This document shows, in pieces, positions 10,605-35,701 of a stretch of 35,702 nucleotides of DNA. The DNA is taken from positions 1 to 35,702 of the IMG/VR virus record IMGVR_UViG_3300037602_000023; one strand, 5' to 3'. This stretch comes from a virus. Taxonomy: Duplodnaviria; Caudoviricetes. The stretch's first letter is position 1. Each line of letters begins with the position of its first letter. Both the position numbers and the translations under genes were made by a program. The notes under the pieces were generated by a model, which did not search any database, had not been told where the DNA came from, and saw nothing but the letters and a program-made list of their open reading frames with translations.

Positions 10605-11091
10605 TGTGTATGAGGCGGGTAATGCTGTACCTGCTGACTTTGACGAGGCTAGGTTTTACAAGTTTAACGCAACTCAGTTCGCCTTTTTGGAGGAGTATGC
10701 CAAGGATTTGGACGAACGTAGGGCTGCTAAAGCTTTGGGATTAAGCCTTGCCACTGTTACAGGCTGGCTTGGCAACACTAAGTTTAGGGCAGAGATGGAT
10801 GTTATTCATGACATATGGATGACAAATGTTAGGGCCACAGCTGAGCATGCCCAGGCGCGTCACATAAAGCTTTTGAATAAGATGGAGAAGGACTATGACG
10901 CCTTTGAGGATGGCACTAAAGCTAAGATGGCTGGCTCACTAGCAAAGATGAGCGACACTTACTTGAAGGCCACTGGTGCTTTTACAAAAGATGGTGGTGG
11001 TCCAGAAGGTCAGGTGGTTATTAACATTGATTTGGGTGGCGATCCAAAGAACAACGACAAGGTGGTTATTAGTGGCGAAAAGAAAGACTAA
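10516..11091 (+). CDS. terS: terminase small subunit (putative)
   Basis: QFAFLEEYAKD...AAKALGLSLATVTGWL HTH, helical middle, C-terminal VVINIDLG; position upstream of TerL. Confidence 0.7.
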   Translation: MAKKLDPQDDPNPRIRTSQGMEVERVSPSDVYEAGNAVPADFDEARFYKFNATQFAFLEEYAKDLDERRAAKALGLSLATVTGWLGNTKFRAEMDVIHDIWMTNVRATAEHAQARHIKLLNKMEKDYDAFEDGTKAKMAGSLAKMSDTYLKATGAFTKDGGGPEGQVVINIDLGGDPKNNDKVVISGEKKD

Positions 11092-11659
11092 GGTTCTTGT
11101 TGGTCTGCCTAATGGTGGTTCTGTTCGTGTTGAGACACTGAACTCGCTTATGGGGTTTGACAAGTCTGGGTTAGAAGTTGGTTTATGTACACCGTCGTCG
11201 TGCTTAATAACGAAGAACCGCAACACCATCTGTGAAGTGGCTATAAAAGATAACTTTGATTATGTCATGTTCTGTGATGCTGACATGTCTTTTAGTCATT
11301 CTTGTGTGAAGGACTTAGTTGAATCAGGCAAAGACATCGTTGCGGCCAATTGTGCTTTCAGGAAATACCCAATTAAGTTTACTGCCGACAATGGCCAGAC
11401 ACCCACCACTGAGTTCAGCAAGGGCTTAGAAAAAGTTAAGAATGTTGGCACAGGTTTTATGTTAATTAAGGTGGATGTGTTGAGGTCTATCCCGCGTCCT
11501 TGGTTTATGGTTGGGTACAATCCTCAGACTAGGAAAGAGTTTGGCGAGGACTATTACTTTTGTAAGAAGGCTGTTGATCTTGGTTATGAGATATACATAG
11601 ATCATGATGTGTCGAAGATGGTAAAGCACATCGGCACGCATGAGTATGGGGTTGTGTAA
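11072..11659 (+). CDS. GT-A fold (family 2-like) glycosyltransferase
   Basis: KVLVGLP, RN.ICE.A, DYVMFCDADM (DxD), VGTGFMLIK, GEDYYFC, HIG; probable GTG start 11072 with GGTGG RBS. Confidence 0.85.
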   Translation: MAKRKTKVLVGLPNGGSVRVETLNSLMGFDKSGLEVGLCTPSSCLITKNRNTICEVAIKDNFDYVMFCDADMSFSHSCVKDLVESGKDIVAANCAFRKYPIKFTADNGQTPTTEFSKGLEKVKNVGTGFMLIKVDVLRSIPRPWFMVGYNPQTRKEFGEDYYFCKKAVDLGYEIYIDHDVSKMVKHIGTHEYGVV

Positions 11660-17745: not shown

Positions 17746-18315
17746 ATGAGCGCCACCGACCTATCAATATGTAAGACTGCTTTACTGCTAGTTGGTGCTG
17801 ATGAAATAAACTCATTTGAAGATGGCTCAAGAGAAGCACGCATATGTGATGCTGTCTACACAACAACAAAAGAATCCTTGATCCAGTCTCATCCTTGGTC
17901 TTTCACTTTAGAACAAACGAGCTTGGCTCGCACAACACAAACGCCAGTTATTGGTGATTTTGAGTATATATACCAGCTTCCAGTGAATAGCCTTAAGGTT
18001 ATCCGCAAAGATGGCTTACAAAACGACTACCGTATATACCAAGATAAGCTATTTTCTTCTGACGATGTGGTGTCTATCATTCATCAAATAGACCCAGGCG
18101 AGCAAAACTTTCCGTCATATTTTACACGTGCATTAGAGTTTAAGATGGCTGAACTATTGGCCGCATCATTGGCTCAAGACGAAACGCTTACTCAAATCAT
18201 GCAAGATAAGTTTATCAGGGCTGTCCGTGAGGCTAAGTCGGCAGATTCTCAAACGCAACCTAACATATTGGTGAATAGCTCTGAGTTTAGCGTTGCTGCT
18301 GTACGGAGGTCTTAA
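17746..18315 (+). CDS. tail tubular protein A / adaptor (T7 gp11-like)
   Basis: ICKTALLLVGA..I.SF, HPWSF, YQLP...L motifs. Confidence 0.85.
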   Translation: MSATDLSICKTALLLVGADEINSFEDGSREARICDAVYTTTKESLIQSHPWSFTLEQTSLARTTQTPVIGDFEYIYQLPVNSLKVIRKDGLQNDYRIYQDKLFSSDDVVSIIHQIDPGEQNFPSYFTRALEFKMAELLAASLAQDETLTQIMQDKFIRAVREAKSADSQTQPNILVNSSEFSVAAVRRS

Positions 18316-20528
18316 TGGCCAATGTTAGGGTTTTACAAACATCTTTTGTTGCAGGTGAGTTCGACCCAACCTTAGAGGGCCGCACAGACATTGGCGATTA
18401 CCGTAATGGTGCGTCTAAGTTGCGCAATGTATACATTAGGCCGCAAGGTGGTGCTTTTAGAAGAGAAGGCTTGCAATACTTTGGGCAAACAAATGGTAAT
18501 GATGCTTCTCGTTTAATTCCGTTTCAGTTCAACGATGCACAAACATATTTACTTGTGTTAAAAGCAGGCCGTATTGATGTTTACAGAACCGATGTGCCTG
18601 ACACAATACAGGCATCACTAACATCATCTCCTATATCAAACATAACCTCAGCTATGGTCAGTGAGATTAACTGGACCCAAAGTGCTGACACACTTATTTT
18701 GGCTCACAAAGACTTAAAGCCTATTTCAGTTACAAGGTCTTCACATACATCCTGGTCTGCATCAGAGATTAGCTTTACTAATATTCCTCCCTATTCTTAT
18801 GATGGTTTATCAACAAGCAACCCAAGTGGTGCTATATTCAGCGATGTTACAACAGGCAAAGCAAAGATTGTCTCGGAAGGTACACCTTTTGATTCTTCTT
18901 ACGAAGGTCAGTTTATTAACACAGAAAAGGGTGGCCGTATTTTTGTAACAAATTATGTTTCTACTTCTGAGTTAGAGGGCACTGTCGTAATTGAGTTGGA
19001 AGACACAACAATTGTTGCAAAGACATCTAAGCTTTCAACAACAGGAACAACTGTCGGATCGTCTGAGACATTCACCACCAACACGGCTTCTTTTACTGAG
19101 GCTAGTGTGGGGCAGTTCATAGTAAATCCTGCTGGTGGAGTTGCGGTTATTACTGCCTATACATCAACAATCAACGTAACAGCAACTATTAGAGAAGAGT
19201 TTGCATCTGACTCTAACATAGAAGGTTGGTATTTGGACAGTGGCTATAACAATTGGGAGTTTGAGGAAGGTTATGAAGATGTCATGAGTTCAACTCGTGG
19301 CTGGCCTCGCTCGGTCACGTTCCACAAATCAAGGTTGGTCTTTGGAGGCTTGAGAGATAGACCTCAGACTTTGTTGTTTTCTAAGATAGGTGACTTCTTT
19401 AACTTTGACATTGGAGAGGGTTTGGATGATGAAGCCATTGATGTTACCATTGATGATGACCAAGTAAATATCATTAAGAATATATTTTCTGGCCGTGCTT
19501 TAAACATTTTTACAAGTGGTGGTGAGTTTAGTATTAGATCTTCGGTTGACAGTACCTTAACGCCAGCCAATATCTCAAGCCAAATAGCCAAAGAGACACG
19601 CCACGGCTCATCTAAAACACGCCCTGCTTCTGTTGATGGAGCTGTTGTGTTTGTAGAGCGTGACGATCCAACTGACGATGCATCAGGAAATGTTTTGCGC
19701 CAGTTCTTGTATAATGATACAGAGCAATCTTTTGTTGCTCCGAACATATCTGTGTTTAGTCAGCACTTGTTTTCTAACCCAGTATCTATGGATATACGCA
19801 GGGCAACGTCCTCTCAGCCATCTAACTACTTATATGTTGTCAACGACAATGGAACCTGCGCAGTTTTAAACTCTCTGAGAGAGCAAAACTTACTTGCCTG
19901 GAGTTTGTTTGAGACAGAGGGAGACTTTGAAGATGTAGCGGTAAGTGGTAACAAAGCGTTCTTCATTGTAAAAAGAACAATAAATTCGTCAACTGTTAGA
20001 TATATAGAAGTATTAAACGAAGAACATTTTATGGACTCAAGTATTCGCACGGACAACGGCAGTGCTACCACATCTTGGTCTGGACTAGATCACTTAGATG
20101 GCGAGACTGTAAAAGTGAGAGGTGATGACTTTATCTTAGATGATGCAGATGTATCGTCTGGTTCTATCACTTCATCAGAAAGCGTTACAATCTTAGAAGC
20201 AGGTCTAAACTTTAGTTCTAAAGTAACCAGCCTGCCGATAGATGTGGTTATTCAGGGTGAGTCTTTTGCAGGTCAGTACAAGACGCCTGTATTTGCAAAT
20301 GTTAGACTTTACGACTCTCGTAACTTTACAGTGAATTACAAGTCAGAAAGCTCATCTCCCGCCTTCCGACGCTTTGACCTAGATACTTTAGACTCGCCAA
20401 TCTCAACATTCACAGGGTGGAAAAAAGTTTACATTGGAGGGTATAATAGGGATGTCAGAGTTGAGGTTACTCAAGAAGAACCTTTAGAGTTTAACATCTT
20501 GGCAGTTCAATTTGGAGTAAAAGTATAA
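18315..20528 (+). CDS. tail tubular protein B / nozzle (T7 gp12-like)
   Basis: QTSFVAGE..P, PQGG..RR.G, TQSAD, GWPRSVTFH.SRL.FGG, GLDHLDGETV motifs. Confidence 0.9.
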   Translation: MANVRVLQTSFVAGEFDPTLEGRTDIGDYRNGASKLRNVYIRPQGGAFRREGLQYFGQTNGNDASRLIPFQFNDAQTYLLVLKAGRIDVYRTDVPDTIQASLTSSPISNITSAMVSEINWTQSADTLILAHKDLKPISVTRSSHTSWSASEISFTNIPPYSYDGLSTSNPSGAIFSDVTTGKAKIVSEGTPFDSSYEGQFINTEKGGRIFVTNYVSTSELEGTVVIELEDTTIVAKTSKLSTTGTTVGSSETFTTNTASFTEASVGQFIVNPAGGVAVITAYTSTINVTATIREEFASDSNIEGWYLDSGYNNWEFEEGYEDVMSSTRGWPRSVTFHKSRLVFGGLRDRPQTLLFSKIGDFFNFDIGEGLDDEAIDVTIDDDQVNIIKNIFSGRALNIFTSGGEFSIRSSVDSTLTPANISSQIAKETRHGSSKTRPASVDGAVVFVERDDPTDDASGNVLRQFLYNDTEQSFVAPNISVFSQHLFSNPVSMDIRRATSSQPSNYLYVVNDNGTCAVLNSLREQNLLAWSLFETEGDFEDVAVSGNKAFFIVKRTINSSTVRYIEVLNEEHFMDSSIRTDNGSATTSWSGLDHLDGETVKVRGDDFILDDADVSSGSITSSESVTILEAGLNFSSKVTSLPIDVVIQGESFAGQYKTPVFANVRLYDSRNFTVNYKSESSSPAFRRFDLDTLDSPISTFTGWKKVYIGGYNRDVRVEVTQEEPLEFNILAVQFGVKV

Positions 20529-27641: not shown

Positions 27642-27866
27642 ATGAAGATAGAGTACAAAGTAAATAGCGGGGGTCATATCCATTTTTATAAATGGGATGA
27701 AAATGAAAATTTGACAACAGCAACCGTTCAGGTTGGTAAAAAAGATATGTTGGTTGAGGTGGCTGGTCAGGAATTGGCTGATGAGCTTGAGGCGAAACAT
27801 TGGACACAAGAATTAATAGACGCATACGAAGAAGAAGAAAGGCGATTTTTTAATGATATTTCTTAA
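27642..27866 (+). CDS. small tail-fiber-associated protein (possible chaperone)
   Basis: AAGGAG RBS; WTQELIDAY C-terminus; between fiber and tailspike. Confidence 0.5.
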   Translation: MKIEYKVNSGGHIHFYKWDENENLTTATVQVGKKDMLVEVAGQELADELEAKHWTQELIDAYEEEERRFFNDIS

Positions 27867-29379
27867 TAAGGCAGAGGCAGAAAACACAAACTTAAGTGGC
27901 GAAAGCTGGGTTGAGTTACTTAACCTTGATACAGTTGGTGATTATGGTGGCGGTACTTATTACCCTGTTGCTTCTGAGCCATCCCACTTAGGTAAGTTCC
28001 AATCGGCAGATGGCACTTGGTGGGAGCTTGTGACATCAGAGCCTAATATTTCTCAGTTTGGCGCGCGTTCACATACGTCTGACATGTATGCTAATGATAA
28101 CACTTTAGCGCTCAAATCAGCGCTTCAATATTGCAAAGATAAAGAAGTGTATCAATTAAAAGCGTTTGGCGGTACATATGCTATTAATGACACGATTATT
28201 ATCCCAAGCGGCGTTACATTAAGGGGTCAAGGAAACACTGACGTAGAGGACAACAATTCCAGAGGGACAAAGTTTAGAACATATGCCGCTTCGCGCCCTG
28301 CTGGTGGATTATGGACTGATGTTGATGGTAATGATCCAACAGATTATGCACCATTTTTTGTGTTAGGTGGAAGTGAGGCACAGCTTGTTGACTTGACTAT
28401 TGAAAACAACACTGGCGGCACAGCTGCAAAATGGGACTGCGGTATCTTTTTGCCTTGCGTACAAAGATGCAGAATTATCAATGTTGATGTACGCGGTAAG
28501 TTTTTGGACGCTGGGATTAGGGTTGACGCCACTTGGTCAAGCTTAAATACAACATTAATGTCGGCTCAGCCAGATGTTACGCCAGCCATAGGGATGAATG
28601 ATCTACATGTTGAGGATTGCCGTATTATCGCTGGTAGGTGGGCAATTAAATATAAGGGTACTGACAGGGCTGGATCAACAGATCCGTTTGTATGGTCGCC
28701 TGGCGGTGTATCTGATCATATGTGGATCAATTGCCGCATATCCAACAATGCTCTTGATACACAGACCAGTCTTGTTGATTCTGGTTGTCTTCATATAGAT
28801 TTGCGCGGTGAGGGAAATTACATCGGGCAGGGCCAGTATTTCACGCGCTGTCACTTTAGATCACAAGGTATCTATATGGTTTATCTTGATAAAGCAAGAC
28901 GTGTTCAATTTACAGATTGTTATGGTGAAGCCACTTCTGGATGGTATAATTCTGTTGGACAAGTTAAGACAAAGATTTACTCAACGGCAAACACGTCTCA
29001 TGTTTACCATCAAGGGGATAGCATGTTCAATAATAGTGTTGAGAATGATTGGAATGGTGCTGGTAATCAGACAGTTATTGAGTATGACGGCACTGGTGTA
29101 TCTTCTATTGGTAATGTTATTAAAACAACGGCAACAATAGACTTCCCATCACTAGCGCCACATTCTCATTCTTGGGGGACTGGTGACATTACTATGATTG
29201 GCGCAGAAGTTGGAGATATTGTAGATGTCGAATTTAATGGCCTTGTCGGCAATAATTTACTTGATTTAAAGGCATATGTGAAGTCAGCAGATACCGTTAG
29301 AATTGTAATGATTAATAATTCTGACACACAAACATTAGACCCAGCAAGCCGTGATTTTAACTTAAGAATTATTAAATAA
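27853..29379 (+). CDS. tailspike with pectate-lyase-like right-handed beta-helix (putative depolymerase)
   Basis: GDYGGGTY...QSADGTWWEL, NISQFGA...DNT.AL..AL, GTYAI...IPSGVTLRGQG. Confidence 0.8.
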   Translation: MIFLNKAEAENTNLSGESWVELLNLDTVGDYGGGTYYPVASEPSHLGKFQSADGTWWELVTSEPNISQFGARSHTSDMYANDNTLALKSALQYCKDKEVYQLKAFGGTYAINDTIIIPSGVTLRGQGNTDVEDNNSRGTKFRTYAASRPAGGLWTDVDGNDPTDYAPFFVLGGSEAQLVDLTIENNTGGTAAKWDCGIFLPCVQRCRIINVDVRGKFLDAGIRVDATWSSLNTTLMSAQPDVTPAIGMNDLHVEDCRIIAGRWAIKYKGTDRAGSTDPFVWSPGGVSDHMWINCRISNNALDTQTSLVDSGCLHIDLRGEGNYIGQGQYFTRCHFRSQGIYMVYLDKARRVQFTDCYGEATSGWYNSVGQVKTKIYSTANTSHVYHQGDSMFNNSVENDWNGAGNQTVIEYDGTGVSSIGNVIKTTATIDFPSLAPHSHSWGTGDITMIGAEVGDIVDVEFNGLVGNNLLDLKAYVKSADTVRIVMINNSDTQTLDPASRDFNLRIIK

Positions 29380-29679
29380 ATGAATGATAGCAATAACATA
29401 GACAGAACATTGGGTAAGCTTGAAGCAACTTTAGAAACTTTAGTTGACCAAAACAAAATCCTAAACAAGAAGTTGGATGCAATATCTGACTCTCATGCTG
29501 GCTATGATATTCGCATTAGATTCACTCAGGAAAAACTAGAGGAAATTGAAGGCAAGGTTAATGACCACGAAAAGTTTAAAACACGGGTATTGACTGTCGT
29601 AATGGTCATTAGCGGTGGGATTGGTTTTGTTAGTCACGTTTTATCTAAGTGGTTATCTAAAATAGCTGGTGGTTTTTAA
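29380..29679 (+). CDS. coiled-coil protein with C-terminal transmembrane helix (lysis-cassette accessory, XhlA-like architecture)
   Basis: LGKLEA heptads; VLTVVMVISGGIGFVSHVL. Confidence 0.6.
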   Translation: MNDSNNIDRTLGKLEATLETLVDQNKILNKKLDAISDSHAGYDIRIRFTQEKLEEIEGKVNDHEKFKTRVLTVVMVISGGIGFVSHVLSKWLSKIAGGF

Positions 29680-29680
29680 A

Positions 29681-30034
29681 ATGAAAGTTGGTTATATAGA
29701 AGATAATGATGGCGATGTGTTTTTAGTAAAAGGGTATTTTGGAAACAAGGCAGAAGTTTATCCCTATACTAAGTTTGAGGATTATCTAACATCTGATGTA
29801 GAGCATGACCTTGTGCTGTCTGACTTAGGAATACCTGATTATACTTTTGAAGCATTAAACAAGGCAGTGGAAAAGGAAGAATGTAAGTTCATCATTCTTT
29901 CTGGCTTGGCTGGATTTGATAGACAAACAGTGGCATACTTAAAGAGCAAGGGTGTAACAGATGTTTTATCAAAGCACACCTTGACACCAACTAAAGCAAG
30001 GGAGTTAGCTAATGTTTGTAAAAGACTGGGGTAA
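29681..30034 (+). CDS. single-domain response regulator receiver (CheY-like REC) protein
   Basis: beta1 VGYIEDN (E7,D8), beta3 DLVLSDLGIPD (D48), beta4 FIILSG (S74), beta5 GVTDVLSK (K98); 117 aa, no output domain. Confidence 0.8.
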   Translation: MKVGYIEDNDGDVFLVKGYFGNKAEVYPYTKFEDYLTSDVEHDLVLSDLGIPDYTFEALNKAVEKEECKFIILSGLAGFDRQTVAYLKSKGVTDVLSKHTLTPTKARELANVCKRLG

Positions 30035-30404
30035 ATACAAAAACTTTAACGAAGCTGAGTTTAGATGTTCACACTCTAACCAAGCCTATATGACCATAGA
30101 ATTTATGGAAAAGTTACAGGCTATGCGGACTGAGCTAGGCAGGCCTATGAAGATTAACTCAGGCTATCGTTCACCAGAACACCCTATAGAAAAAGCTAAA
30201 GACAGGCGTGGTGAGCATACATATGGCTGTGCTGCTGACATACAATGTTCTCCTGGTGAGGCCATTGAAATAGTTGGTCTTGCTATTAAACACGGCTTTA
30301 CACGCATAGGCATAAACCAAAAGGGGCCGTATGCTGGACGGTTTATTCATGTGGGCTTAGGTTATGATGACCTATTCCCACGCAATGTTATGTGGAGTTA
30401 CTAA
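30012..30404 (+). CDS. endolysin, peptidase M15A family
   Basis: F...EF.C, INSGYRSPEH, H..G.AAD, GF.RIG...FIHV. Confidence 0.88.
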   Translation: MFVKDWGKYKNFNEAEFRCSHSNQAYMTIEFMEKLQAMRTELGRPMKINSGYRSPEHPIEKAKDRRGEHTYGCAADIQCSPGEAIEIVGLAIKHGFTRIGINQKGPYAGRFIHVGLGYDDLFPRNVMWSY

Positions 30405-30775
30405 TGGGCATACAAGCAATCCTACCGTTACTAGGCACATTGGCCGACAAGGTGTTTGACACTAAAGAAAAGGCTGATGAATTTAAGGCCGCTATGGACA
30501 GGGCGGCGGCGGATGTTATTATGACAGAAGCTAAGGGTGAATCTTGGTTGCAACGTAACTGGCGCCCAATTACAATGCTGTTCTTCTTAGTTCTTCTAGG
30601 CTCTTACTGGTTCGGCTATGCCCCAGAGTATTTGATAGAAAATCCATCCGTTGTTGAGCGTGTGTTCTTCTTGCTTCAAATTGGTATTGGCGGGTACATT
30701 GGCGGGCGCAGTGTTGAGAAGATTGCAAAAGAGATTGCCCCAGTTCTAAAAGAGAAACGAAAGTACAATGACTAA
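30404..30775 (+). CDS. holin of 3TM (GTA-type) family
   Basis: EAKGESWLQRNWRP...GIGGY..GRS.EK. Confidence 0.85.
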   Translation: MGIQAILPLLGTLADKVFDTKEKADEFKAAMDRAAADVIMTEAKGESWLQRNWRPITMLFFLVLLGSYWFGYAPEYLIENPSVVERVFFLLQIGIGGYIGGRSVEKIAKEIAPVLKEKRKYND

Positions 30776-31026
30776 AGGTTGTCGAAACTTTCATTAAAAT
30801 CCTCTTTAATAATGTCTCTCAAATCAGGAACGCTCTCTGCAATAGATGTTAGTATGTGTATTAGACTTAAGCTTAGAAGTTCTACATCGTCTACGTTCTG
30901 ACATGAGTTCTCAAATATATCAAAAGCTGTTTGTACAACATCTTCGTCAGTAAAGAAACTCATGTTAAAATCCACCTGTGTTACATCGTTGGCGGCTGGC
31001 TTAGGAAATTTGATTATGTTCGACAT
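30772..31026 (-). CDS. hypothetical acidic protein
   Basis: ORF track; MSNIIKFP start; stop codon overlaps holin stop. Confidence 0.7.
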   Translation of the reverse strand: MSNIIKFPKPAANDVTQVDFNMSFFTDEDVVQTAFDIFENSCQNVDDVELLSLSLIHILTSIAESVPDLRDIIKEDFNESFDNL

Positions 31027-31507
31027 ATTCTAACTCATCTATAGCTGTTTGTATTGGATAGTCTTTGATGGTCATCCACTTTCTGTTTCTATTATCACAT
31101 AAGTCTAAACTTAATGGAAGCTTAACTGAGGCATTGTTACACACATTAAGCCAAGGGATGTAGGCAATAGACATGCTATCCAAGGCCACACAGGCCAGTA
31201 TATCAAAGTCATTGTCTTTATACTTTGGTGCGCCGTTAGCTGTGGCTCTGGCTATTCTGAATGTGTAAGAAGGTGTGTCGTTCCGCGAAGGTGGTGATTG
31301 GCGGCACCTGGCTGTTGTTTTCACTTGTATTCTTAAGAGCCGCGACTTGTCTAATGTTTCAGCCAAGATGTCATACTTAGAGTTTTGGTTACACATGACA
31401 GGGTTGTGGCCGTTTAACAGTAAGTCAGCACAAACGATATGCTCGCCAGCTATACCAATGTTGAGTGAGTCTTTCTGCCTGGACAGCTTATCCCCTGTGT
31501 ATTTCAT
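31001..31507 (-). CDS. PD-(D/E)XK endonuclease (group I intron-associated / I-Ssp6803I-like family)
   Basis: GIAGEHIVCADL..G, YDIL, RIQVKT, Y...DFD..A motifs. Confidence 0.8.
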   Translation of the reverse strand: MKYTGDKLSRQKDSLNIGIAGEHIVCADLLLNGHNPVMCNQNSKYDILAETLDKSRLLRIQVKTTARCRQSPPSRNDTPSYTFRIARATANGAPKYKDNDFDILACVALDSMSIAYIPWLNVCNNASVKLPLSLDLCDNRNRKWMTIKDYPIQTAIDELEYVEHNQIS

Positions 31508-31544
31508 ATGCCTATGTTAAACCATAAACATATGTTTTTCTATG

Positions 31545-31573
31545 GGGTTAGGCCCCAGATCAAAGTTTGTCAA
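31545..31573 (-). promoter_or_regulatory. candidate promoter for the endonuclease, overlapped by a palindrome
   Basis: TTGACA-N17-TAACCC; TGGGG-N5-CCCCA over the -10; AAACATATGTTT downstream. Confidence 0.5.
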
Positions 31574-31578
31574 AAATT

Positions 31579-31613
31579 AAAAAGGCAAGTAGACATAAGC
31601 CTACCTGCCTTTT
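31579..31613 (-). terminator. intrinsic terminator
   Basis: AGGCAGGUAGGC-UUAU-GUCUACUUGCCU-UUUU; G-U pairs favour the minus strand. Confidence 0.85.
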
Positions 31614-31645
31614 GAAACTTTAAACAGGATAGCAACCGCTATCTA
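31579..31645 (-). ncRNA. candidate ~65-nt small RNA
   Basis: Promoter TTGACG(31679-31674)-N17-TTCAAT(31656-31651); 5' hairpin GAUAGC-GGUU-GCUAUC; ends at the terminator. Confidence 0.45.
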
Positions 31646-31712
31646 CTTATATTGAACCACAAAAAACTTCGCACGTCAATCGTTCCTTTTATTATTAGGC
31701 TTCACGATATTT

Positions 31713-32501
31713 TCATCTTTTCCCCATGTGTTTTAAAATGTGCGCTATAACATCAACAGTCCATCCGTTGCCAAGCATTTTATAGCGTTGGGTGTTGCTT
31801 ACCCCTTCGGTGTAGTTATCTGGTAAAGTTTGAAGCCATTCGCACTCGATAGGGGTAAGTTTTCTGTATTGCCCAAGCCTACAGTCCTCAAACACTAATT
31901 GTCTTCTTCTTTTCTCAAAATAACTTTTTTTATTTCCACCTTTCCAGTAATTTGCATCTATGCAATATGCCTTGTCCTTGTCCACAAATCCGTTTTCAAT
32001 ACTGTCTTTCAGCAAAATTCCCTTATCCTCTGGCTCTGTCGCATCCCAGTTAAACCAGTAATAGCGCTGTCTATTTTGCGCCGATACGAGAGCAGAGTTT
32101 ATAAACATAGGCTCAACGCCCATATAATTTGTGATAACGCCAAGATGTTCTTTCTTCATTTTCACGTTTTCAAGAAGCTTAAAGCGCGGTTTGTAATGCT
32201 CTATAATATCCATCATTGTGAAGAATAGCTTTGAGCGCGGGTCATCAAAAGCAAGCTGTTTCCCTGCAAAACTAAAACCCTGACACGGTGAGCCGCCAAT
32301 AATCAAATCTGGCTTTTCAATATCCCATTCGCGCCAATTCTCAACGTCACCAAGCTGTATAATATCAGGATGGTTTTTCATTGCGATCTGAATTGCGTAT
32401 TTATCAATTTCGCTCGCATAATATTTCGTCACAGGTATACCAGCACGTTTCAGTGCTTCATATCCGCATGACATGCCATCAAATAAACTAAGTACAATCA
32501 T
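31713..32501 (-). CDS. C5 cytosine DNA methyltransferase
   Basis: Motif I SLFDG, motif IV GGSPCQGFS, motif VI LENV, motif VIII QNRQR, motif X RYKMLGNGW. Confidence 0.93.
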   Translation of the reverse strand: MIVLSLFDGMSCGYEALKRAGIPVTKYYASEIDKYAIQIAMKNHPDIIQLGDVENWREWDIEKPDLIIGGSPCQGFSFAGKQLAFDDPRSKLFFTMMDIIEHYKPRFKLLENVKMKKEHLGVITNYMGVEPMFINSALVSAQNRQRYYWFNWDATEPEDKGILLKDSIENGFVDKDKAYCIDANYWKGGNKKSYFEKRRRQLVFEDCRLGQYRKLTPIECEWLQTLPDNYTEGVSNTQRYKMLGNGWTVDVIAHILKHMGKR

Positions 32502-34702: not shown

Positions 34703-35157
34703 AGCGCCCCCACTGAAATTAGAAAAGCATAGTCATCATATGTGCTTTTGGCTGTTTCCTCGTCTTTGAAGTAGTGTTTTACGCCTATTATTTGACTGGA
34801 ATATACGACATCACAGTAAAACTCCTGGCTAATACAACCATATTGAACACAAAATTTTCTTTGATTACTATTCCGCCAATCAGGCTCAAACGCCTTTGAT
34901 TCAATTCGCTTGCGAGCATCTATGACTTTTTGCGCTACACCAACACGGAATACGTTGTTATTGGATAGGCGGTAGTGGTCGAAGGTATCATTTTCCCATC
35001 TATCTTTACACACATCGCCAAGGCTGTTAATACACTCATAATAATCACCAATCTCAGGTACAAACCGACCTTCCTCTTGCTTCTCAACAGGCAGTGTCTC
35101 AATAGCCTCGTCAATGCTTTGCTTTAGTCCTTCGAGTATTTCTTTAGTTGTTTTCAT
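34699..35157 (-). CDS. hypothetical phage protein
   Basis: ORF track; P..GD.Y...G...W...D....N.F and PDW....K...YF motifs. Confidence 0.75.
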   Translation of the reverse strand: MKTTKEILEGLKQSIDEAIETLPVEKQEEGRFVPEIGDYYECINSLGDVCKDRWENDTFDHYRLSNNNVFRVGVAQKVIDARKRIESKAFEPDWRNSNQRKFCVQYGCISQEFYCDVVYSSQIIGVKHYFKDEETAKSTYDDYAFLISVGAL

Positions 35158-35701
35158 TTTGGTGTTCCTTTGCTATTAACAAGATTGTTTCCTTATACAT
35201 CTCCCACCACTGGGCAGAAGTTTTACCGTCCATTTCAATAATTCGTTTGTTAGAAAATTTTTCCCACTGCTTGGTGGTATGAAATTCGCATCCTATTCTA
35301 ATGTGTTTGTCTGTTATTGTGATAGGGTACTTCATACCAATGATATTAATAGGAGACACCTCAGCATCACCATACACCTCAGCATCACCAGACACCCTAG
35401 CATCACCATACACCCTAGCATTGCCATACACCCTAGCATCACCATACACCCTAGCATTGCCATACACCTCAGCATCACCATACACCCTAGCATCACCAGA
35501 CACCTCAGCATCACCATACACCTCAGCATTGCCAGACACCTCAGCATCACCATACACCACAGCATTGCCATACACCCTAGCATTGCCATACACCCTAGCA
35601 TCACCATACACCCTAGCATCACCAGACACCCTAGCATCACCATACACCTCAGCATCACCAGACACCCTAGCATCACCAGACACCCTAGCATCACCATACA
35701 C
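35144..35701 (-). CDS. C-terminal part of the hexapeptide-repeat protein (continues from 402 across the join)
   Basis: GDARVY repeats, then YPITIT...IRIGCEFH...W C-terminal domain; frame continuous after removing the 127-bp overlap. Confidence 0.85.
   Translation of the reverse strand: MYGDARVSGDARVSGDAEVYGDARVSGDARVYGDARVYGNARVYGNAVVYGDAEVSGNAEVYGDAEVSGDARVYGDAEVYGNARVYGDARVYGNARVYGDARVSGDAEVYGDAEVSPINIIGMKYPITITDKHIRIGCEFHTTKQWEKFSNKRIIEMDGKTSAQWWEMYKETILLIAKEHQNENN

What the first reader, a model, noticed from the sequence alone, without database searches (positions are those of the whole stretch)
29380..30775. CheY-like phospho-receiver protein embedded in the lysis cassette: possible signal-controlled lysis
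Seen: ORF 29681-30034 has the receiver-domain active site in the expected spacing (E7-D8 acidic pocket, D48 in DLVLSDLGIPD, S74 in IILSG, K98) and no output domain. It starts 2 nt after a coiled-coil/TM gene and overlaps the M15A endolysin start by 23 nt, followed by a 3TM holin. No histidine kinase is visible in the genome. Established: single-domain receivers act by protein-protein contact or as phosphate sinks. Inference: the phage may read a host phosphorelay (or acetyl-phosphate) to time lysis through the holin or the adjacent membrane protein, or drain host signalling late in infection. I know of no characterised lysis cassette with this component.
Basis: partly seen in the sequence, partly recalled or inferred. 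Interest (0 to 1): 0.85.

Follow-up and report, generated by a model that had tools for sequence, protein, structure and literature searches.

The report
Phospho-receiver switch inside phage lysis cassette
A complete 36-kb uncultured phage carries a bacterial-type phosphorylation "receiver" protein, and no kinase of its own, between a small membrane-anchored coiled-coil protein and its cell-wall-cutting enzyme, a pairing that recurs in unrelated phages and likely lets host signalling adjust when the infected cell bursts, though no step has been tested at the bench.

Summary
ORF 29681-30034 is a divergent single-domain receiver: Pfam misses it, but its model matches solved receivers (Z 15.8), and D8, D48 and K98 are invariant in 15 aligned sequences. 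All 4 clade members with known context, including this one, overlap an endolysin start (four families). Its steadiest partner, however, is the upstream one-helix membrane coiled-coil protein: adjacent or fused in 10 of 14 receiver loci against 1 of 56 controls. That protein weakly resembles the N4 pinholin gp63 family (E 0.002), and a co-fold gave weak support (0.38 against 0.00). Four cultured Alteromonas phages carry the same pair among lysis genes, with a separate receiver lineage; papers list it only as an auxiliary gene. Against: across all receiver loci endolysins are not enriched (2 of 14 against 6 of 66), and large-phage versions have no recognised lysis neighbours. Best reading (0.55): a host-phosphorylated lysis regulator acting on a holin-like partner. 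I found no paper describing this. The scan has noted similar cassettes on other DNA (8 notes).

The parts
29380..29679 (+). 99-aa coiled-coil protein with one C-terminal membrane helix (about residues 70-88); likely holin-like partner of the receiver, of the N4 gp63 / XhlA type
   Evidence: Hydropathy and heptad scan; the only ORF in the window that passes. phrog_937 E 4e-5, phrog_2990 E 2e-4, phrog_5211 (N4 gp63 family) E 0.002. More K/R on the coiled-coil side.
29681..30034 (+). 117-aa stand-alone receiver (REC) domain with E7-D8, D48, S74, K98; short alpha2, no Pro after K98, Val at the usual aromatic switch position
30012..30404 (+). M15 peptidase endolysin, 130 aa, no hydrophobic anchor found
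   Evidence: PF08291 E 5e-13; phrog_894 E 4e-28; no membrane helix
30404..30775 (+). holin-like membrane protein of the GTA_holin_3TM type, 123 aa
   Evidence: phrog_3427 holin E 4e-24; PF11351 E 7e-5, below cut-off
27853..29379 (+). tail-spike-like gene whose stop abuts the cassette; places it at the end of the late genes
   Evidence: phrog_2234 E 7e-6; coordinates

Best explanation
The gene encodes a stand-alone receiver domain with an intact phosphorylation site, placed between a one-helix membrane coiled-coil gene and the endolysin gene, and it likely acts as a lysis regulator that is phosphorylated by a host kinase (inferred) and is predicted to bind the cytoplasmic coiled coil of that neighbour, which probably works as a holin-like trigger. 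Shown: fold, conserved site, gene order, absence of a phage kinase, and recurrent adjacency to or fusion with a one-helix coiled-coil protein. Inferred: (1) all four genes are made together late, from the overlapping frames; (2) the coiled coil faces the cytoplasm; (3) the receiver binds it (weak co-fold; fusions in other phages); (4) the phospho-state changes its oligomer state, and so the moment at which it and the downstream holin open the membrane for the soluble M15 enzyme. The direction is a near coin-toss. I favour the phosphorylated form holding lysis back, so that lysis follows when host phospho-flux falls. The donor could also be a small molecule such as acetyl phosphate (established receiver chemistry, recalled).
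For: Phospho-site: D8, D48 and K98 invariant, and S/T at 74, in 15 of 15 aligned rows at 26-36% identity. Clade of 16 rows, support 98/94: the 4 with context (window, L010, G001, L047) all overlap an endolysin start, by 23, 4, 28 and 4 nt, with PF08291, PF00959, phrog_465 and PF13539 enzymes; 3 of the 4 have a one-helix coiled-coil gene directly upstream. Pairing: 10 of 14 receiver loci vs 1 of 56 control loci, Fisher p 3e-8, loci not independent. Fusions in both orders: membrane-coil-receiver (L030, L076) and receiver-coil-membrane (L019, L038, L068, L084, L092, L134). Cultured V22, A5, R9Y1 and R8W show membrane-coil then receiver among spanin, holin or endolysin genes, with a separate receiver lineage (96/96). 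The coiled-coil side is richer in K/R in 12 of 13 unfused partners. The partner hits the N4 gp63 family; gp63 is a C-anchored pinholin whose cytoplasmic part carries timing mutations (PMC12642591 passages), and L010 has N4's gene order with the receiver in gp62's slot. phiKZ gp143 is a cytoplasmic regulator acting through a holin's cytoplasmic domain (PMC12894885 section 7). Co-fold: weak support, 0.38 vs best control 0.00, contacts agree at least 77%, partner pLDDT at least 83; the mark was reached by 116 of 157 solved complexes and 2 of 215 mismatches, but at 0.60 or under by only 18 of 157 and by both mismatches. No HATPase_c in 5 of 5 small-phage records.
Against: Endolysins within the flank are not enriched over all receiver loci: 2 of 14 vs 6 of 66, p 0.62, and two of the 8 queries came from those 2 loci. 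Seven wider regions, mostly from large phages, showed no lysis gene among 74 of 108 listed ORFs scanned, apart from one M23 peptidase about 2.7 kb away. L025 and L065 have a receiver with no such partner, and L047 is ambiguous. 12 of 16 clade rows have no context. Likeness to gp63 is weak: BLAST E 0.031 and hhalign probability 7.6%, and coiled coils match each other easily. The receiver lacks the Pro after K98 and has Val at the switch position, so the output coupling may be altered. 0 of 9 loci of endolysin relatives carry a receiver, so it is dispensable for this type of cassette. The heptad and hydropathy filter is my own crude heuristic. No host, kinase, expression or phenotype data.
Confidence: 0.55

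Rival explanations
1. The receiver and the membrane coiled-coil form a signalling unit with a job other than lysis timing (for example superinfection sensing or exclusion, or control of a host envelope process). It sits among lysis genes in small phages only because it needs late expression.
For: The pair or fusion occurs in large phages beside a PAS histidine kinase and a second receiver, with no recognised lysis gene; there is no overall endolysin enrichment.
Against: Overlap with an endolysin start in 4 of 4 clade members with different enzymes; position between holin, spanin and endolysin genes in four cultured phages; the partner resembles known lysis membrane proteins.
Confidence: 0.2
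2. The receiver is a phosphate sink or decoy that drains a host two-component or phosphorelay pathway (such as an envelope-stress response) late in infection, and it does not touch the lysis proteins.
For: No output domain, no kinase in the genome, intact site; sinks are an established role of single-domain receivers (recalled). V22's gene is published as an auxiliary signalling gene (PMC7289586 passages). L025 and L065 lack the partner.
Against: Does not explain the tight adjacency and the fusions with the membrane coiled coil or the weak co-fold pass.
Confidence: 0.13
3. The receiver regulates lysis, but through the downstream holin or the endolysin rather than through the coiled-coil protein.
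For: Its gene overlaps the endolysin start in 4 of 4 clade members; L047 lacks a clear coiled-coil gene.
Against: Endolysin and holin families change from phage to phage, and L010 shows no holin of this type, while the coiled-coil partner persists. These pairs were not co-folded (one job only).
Confidence: 0.08
4. A host gene fragment that hitchhikes at a recombination-prone spot behind the tail fibre and has no function.
For: The coiled-coil and receiver genes are slightly lower in G+C (0.35-0.36 vs 0.43-0.44 downstream); the block travels with tail-fibre modules in Alteromonas phages (PMC10579305 passages).
Against: Invariant active site at about 30% identity; two separate receiver lineages in the same setting.
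Confidence: 0.04

Closest known systems
Single-domain response regulators (CheY, Spo0F, DivK, Thermotoga RR468; PF00072 fold)
   Same: (beta/alpha)5 fold, acidic pair, phospho-Asp, Ser/Thr, Lys, no output domain
   Different: Below Pfam detection, short alpha2, no Lys-Pro, phage-encoded with no kinase, coupled to lysis genes
Phage N4 lysis cassette: pinholin gp63, regulator gp62, SAR endolysin gp61 (PMC12642591; abstract and passages read)
   Same: A C-anchored one-helix protein with a helical cytoplasmic domain heads the cassette; the 99-aa protein hits its PHROG at E 0.002; L010 has the same order with the receiver in gp62's place
   Different: gp62 is a two-helix membrane protein. The authors' 'Receiver domain' is their name for a mutation cluster in gp63, not a REC fold, and 'phosphoryl' does not occur in the text. 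The endolysin here has no SAR anchor.
phiKZ gp143 with class III holin gp142 (PMC12894885; abstract and section 7 read)
   Same: A non-essential cytoplasmic protein in the cassette that shifts holin timing through the holin's cytoplasmic domain
   Different: No phosphorylation input appears in what I read; homology to gp143 not tested
Two-membrane-protein lysis systems: PBSX XhlA/XhlB (PMC5589764 passages) and mycobacteriophage LysF1b/LysF1a, LysA2b/LysA2a (10.64898/2026.08.27.747656 passages)
   Same: A one-helix protein cooperates with a second holin; the 99-aa protein hits phrog_937 'hemolysin'
   Different: Gram-positive hosts and no receiver; PF10779 XhlA E only 2.5
CheY-like genes of Alteromonas phages V22 gp30, A5 gp11 and R8W gp48 (PMC7289586, PMC10579305, PMC8228385; passages read)
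   Same: Same membrane-coil plus receiver pair among lysis genes; V22 gp30 is the top viral fold match
   Different: Separate receiver lineage, N-terminal anchor on the partner, extra C-terminal helix on the receiver; published as auxiliary metabolic genes, with neighbours of unknown function and no lysis link in the passages seen

Membership tests
Receiver (REC/CheY-like) domain | (beta/alpha)5 fold | tested here: met
   (Z 15.8, rmsd 1.9, 114 aligned; predicted model)
Receiver (REC/CheY-like) domain | Acidic pair, phospho-Asp, Ser/Thr and Lys at the strand ends | tested here: met
   E7-D8, D48, S74, K98; conserved in 15 of 15 rows
Receiver (REC/CheY-like) domain | PF00072 score above cut-off | tested here: not met
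   No hit at E<=10; 10 of 15 alignment rows hit at E<=0.1
Receiver (REC/CheY-like) domain | Lys-Pro after beta5 and aromatic switch residue | tested here: not met
   K98-H99 and V95; several homologues keep F/Y three residues before the Lys; the canonical motif is recalled
Receiver (REC/CheY-like) domain | Is phosphorylated on the Asp | not testable with these tools
   needs a bench assay
Two-component system | Cognate histidine kinase in the genome | tested here: not met
   0 PF02518 matches in G000
N4 gp63-type class III pinholin (99-aa gene) | One C-terminal membrane helix with a cytoplasmic helical N-domain | tested here: met
   (predicted)
N4 gp63-type class III pinholin (99-aa gene) | Sequence homology to gp63 | tested here: inconclusive
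   phrog_5211 E 0.002; BLAST E 0.031; hhalign 7.6%
N4 gp63-type class III pinholin (99-aa gene) | Paired with a SAR endolysin | tested here: not met
   No hydrophobic anchor in the M15 enzyme; L010's lysozyme has an Ala/Gly-rich N-terminus
XhlA (PF10779) | Pfam score above cut-off | tested here: not met
   8.8 bits vs 34.7
Lysis regulator / antiholin | Binds a holin-type protein | tested here: inconclusive
   co-fold weak support, 0.38 vs 0.00
Lysis regulator / antiholin | Shifts lysis timing | not testable with these tools
   needs lysis curves

The most novel reading that the evidence does not exclude
Phages have repeatedly captured bacterial receiver domains and wired them, split or fused, to a holin-like membrane coiled coil, creating a phosphorylation-gated lysis clock. 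Small phages read a host kinase, and large ones bring their own sensor kinase. This would be a widespread, undescribed class of lysis control in which the host's signalling state sets burst time.
Probability: 0.4. Interest if true: 0.9.

Novelty: new variant of a known kind. Interest (0 to 1): 0.72.

Why it matters
The lysis timers I know of or read about depend on holin accumulation, membrane potential, or antiholins that sense superinfection. A phospho-receiver would give phages a direct line from host two-component signalling to burst time and burst size, and would address how phages match lysis to host condition. It would also reassign genes now filed as 'auxiliary metabolic' CheY-like genes. 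It is testable now, because four cultured Alteromonas phages carry the pair and the cassette here is only 1.4 kb.

Tried and rejected
Word-index homologue searches found only the query for the receiver and for the 99-aa protein, and only already-known rows for alignment A2. tblastn of the receiver and of P0007 against GenBank phages found nothing; P0008 and two locus receivers gave only weak, mostly host-like records, not opened. Locus scans with no new locus. A1 and A2 were too divergent for the locus scan. The context of 12 clade members therefore stays unknown. A capsid scan of bacterial genomes found no prophage relative, so the host is unassigned. phmmer against PDB gave nothing significant (best CtrA, E 0.11). 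Promoter and terminator counts were at chance level. No RNA holder is listed; run X3 laid nothing, and the contigs showed no variants, so no selection test was possible. The Atlas structure search gave no hit for the 99-aa protein. Burkholderia vB_E427's receiver is an OmpR-type regulator beside a kinase and an efflux-pump-like gene, unrelated to lysis. The endolysins in control loci are not beside missed receivers. Literature searches with no paper on a receiver in a lysis cassette: (open-licence library only; listings seen; supplements not read; most subscription papers are missing). PMC3978041 and the Yersinia preprint 10.1101/2023.02.08.527387 were seen as listings only. Rows left out: P0016 from A1 (366 aa); 10 motif loci without an ORF from the control; L047 counted as a miss; L101 not extended. 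An earlier count said 26 receiver loci; the count is 22 of 120.

Full report
Setting. The window is a complete 35,702-base virus record with direct terminal repeats. It has T7-like virion genes, a primase-polymerase/helicase, and no recognised RNA polymerase or separate DNA polymerase among 39 ORFs scanned. The host is unknown: the capsid found no relative in bacterial genomes. Four genes follow the tail spike almost without gaps: a 99-aa protein (29380-29679), the 117-aa ORF (29681-30034), an M15 endolysin (30012-30404) and a holin-like gene (30404-30775). Contigs of two public runs agree with the window base for base where laid; one may be its source.

Is it a receiver? Pfam and PHROGs do not recognise it. 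A search of 1.84 billion representatives gave 15 relatives at E<=0.001. In the alignment of the query with 14 of them, D8, D43, D48, P52, G91 and K98 are invariant and position 74 is always Ser or Thr; 10 of 15 rows hit PF00072. The AF2 model (pLDDT 90.3) matches solved receivers (Z 15.8, rmsd 1.9, 114 aligned), and the Atlas agrees. So it is a divergent receiver whose phospho-site is kept under selection. It lacks the Pro after the Lys and has Val at the switch position. No histidine-kinase ATPase domain is present in this genome or in four other small receiver-bearing records.

Where do relatives sit? P0009 lies in a 35.9-kb phage (L010) in the order: coiled-coil with C-terminal helix, receiver, lysozyme with a weakly hydrophobic N-terminus, then spanin-like genes. 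A motif scan of viral contigs returned 120 loci, of which 22 encode a receiver by the A1 profile. A tree of 43 receivers puts the window's protein in a clade of 16 (98/94). Four members have context: the window, L010, G001 and L047. In all four the receiver overlaps the start of an endolysin (23, 4, 28 and 4 nt), and the enzymes fall in four families. Three have a one-helix coiled-coil gene directly upstream; L047 has a multi-helix gene whose end resembles such an anchor. Nine loci with relatives of the window's endolysin have no receiver, so it is an add-on.

Which neighbour is the partner? Among 80 motif loci with full flanks, a one-helix coiled-coil protein is adjacent or fused in 10 of 14 receiver loci (11 with L047) and in 1 of 56 non-receiver loci; 10 loci had no ORF. 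The filter is crude and the loci are related: L030 and L076 are one protein, and four belong to one large-phage clade. That leaves about six lineages for and one (L025/L065) against. Four short loci that I extended (L120, L127, L131, L102) also show the partner. Fusions occur in both orders. Whichever end carries the anchor, the coiled-coil side is richer in Lys/Arg in 12 of 13 unfused partners, which suggests it faces the cytoplasm; the fusions were mostly ties, and short tails bias this count. A co-fold of the receiver with two copies of residues 1-69 gave weak support: 0.38 against 0.00 for the best of three controls, at least 77% contact agreement, partner pLDDT at least 83. The mark was reached by 116 of 157 solved complexes and 2 of 215 mismatches, but at 0.60 or under by only 18 of the 157 and by both mismatches.

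The link to lysis is weaker outside this clade. Endolysins within the flanks are not enriched over all receiver loci (2 of 14 vs 6 of 66, p 0.62). Large phages carry receiver-coil-membrane genes beside a PAS kinase and a second receiver. In seven wider regions PHROGs named no lysis gene among the 74 of 108 ORFs that I scanned, except one M23 peptidase. The receiver plus membrane coil is thus the constant unit, and lysis genes are its setting in small phages.

Cultured phages. An earlier scan note pointed to Alteromonas phage V22, which was also the top viral fold match. In V22, A5, R9Y1 and R8W, an N-anchored coiled-coil gene is followed within a few bases by a receiver, among spanin, holin or endolysin genes behind the tail fibre. 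Their receivers form a separate clade (96/96); I did not run a one-clade test, so separate capture is likely but not shown. Of 128 records matching V22's receiver, 60 were listed, many look like host contigs, and I opened three besides V22; one was a host-type operon. The papers call these genes auxiliary metabolic genes and give the neighbours as unknown (passages: PMC7289586, PMC8228385, PMC10579305).

What the partner may be. It hits phrog_937, phrog_2990 and, at E 0.002, phrog_5211, the family of N4 gp63, which itself hits phrog_2990. Direct comparisons are weak. gp63 is a C-anchored pinholin whose timing mutations cluster in its cytoplasmic part. phiKZ gp143 shifts timing through the cytoplasmic domain of a one-helix holin, and one-helix proteins cooperate with second holins in PBSX and in mycobacteriophages. 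Because the enzyme here has no anchor, it likely needs large holes, presumably from the 123-aa holin, with the 99-aa protein as trigger or co-holin (inference).

Verdict. The most likely mechanism (0.55) is a receiver, phosphorylated by the host, that binds the cytoplasmic coiled coil of a holin-like protein and shifts lysis time. The rivals are a membrane signalling unit with another job (0.20), a phosphate sink (0.13), action on the holin or endolysin (0.08) and hitchhiking (0.04). It works like a lysis regulator, but membership is unproven, and it is a receiver by fold and site though not by Pfam score. Seven literature searches found no description of a receiver in a lysis cassette, within an open-licence library and without supplements. 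The scan has noted similar cassettes in other genomes (8 notes) and none for this sequence or genome; I treat these as leads, not support.

Noticed in passing
window 29380-30775: No spanin was recognised in or near the cassette, although L010, G001, L047, V22 and A5 carry spanin-like genes; how the outer membrane is broken is open.
   Followed up: partly
L038:2483-4864, L084, L019, L068, L092, L073, L134, L146: Large phages carry a three-gene relay: receiver-coiled-coil-membrane gene (fused or split), PAS histidine kinase, and a second single-domain receiver; no lysis gene recognised nearby.
   Followed up: partly
L076:949-2872 and L144:6225-8145: A membrane-coil-receiver fusion lies two genes behind an HTH regulator of LuxR-like appearance, among Ig-like secreted-type genes.
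   Followed up: no
L047:1948-2406: A 152-aa multi-helix gene before the receiver looks like the front of a membrane protein joined to a coiled-coil-type anchor; it may be a deletion or a misassembly.
   Followed up: partly
L025:2258-2686, L065:2258-2758: Stand-alone receivers followed by a 222-aa gene of hydrolase-like appearance (no Pfam hit), with no membrane coiled-coil partner.
   Followed up: no
window 10976-11659: A glycosyltransferase-like gene (PF03452, weak PF00535) abuts the terminase large subunit.
   Followed up: no
window 35144-35701 (-): A protein of tandem six-residue repeats at the window's end, with open frames on both strands.
   Followed up: no
window 31001-32501 (-): A PD-(D/E)XK endonuclease and a C5 cytosine methyltransferase lie close together, converging on the lysis cassette.
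   Followed up: no
window 18315-20528: The tail protein (phrog_376) has a weak Peptidase_S7 hit (E 1.6e-4), probably spurious.
   Followed up: no
L140:7920-8897 (R8W): R8W gp46 and N4 gp62 hit the same PHROG (phrog_1356), so R8W has a gp62-like gene, a membrane coiled coil and a receiver in a row; gp48, annotated as PhoB, is only 153 aa.
   Followed up: partly
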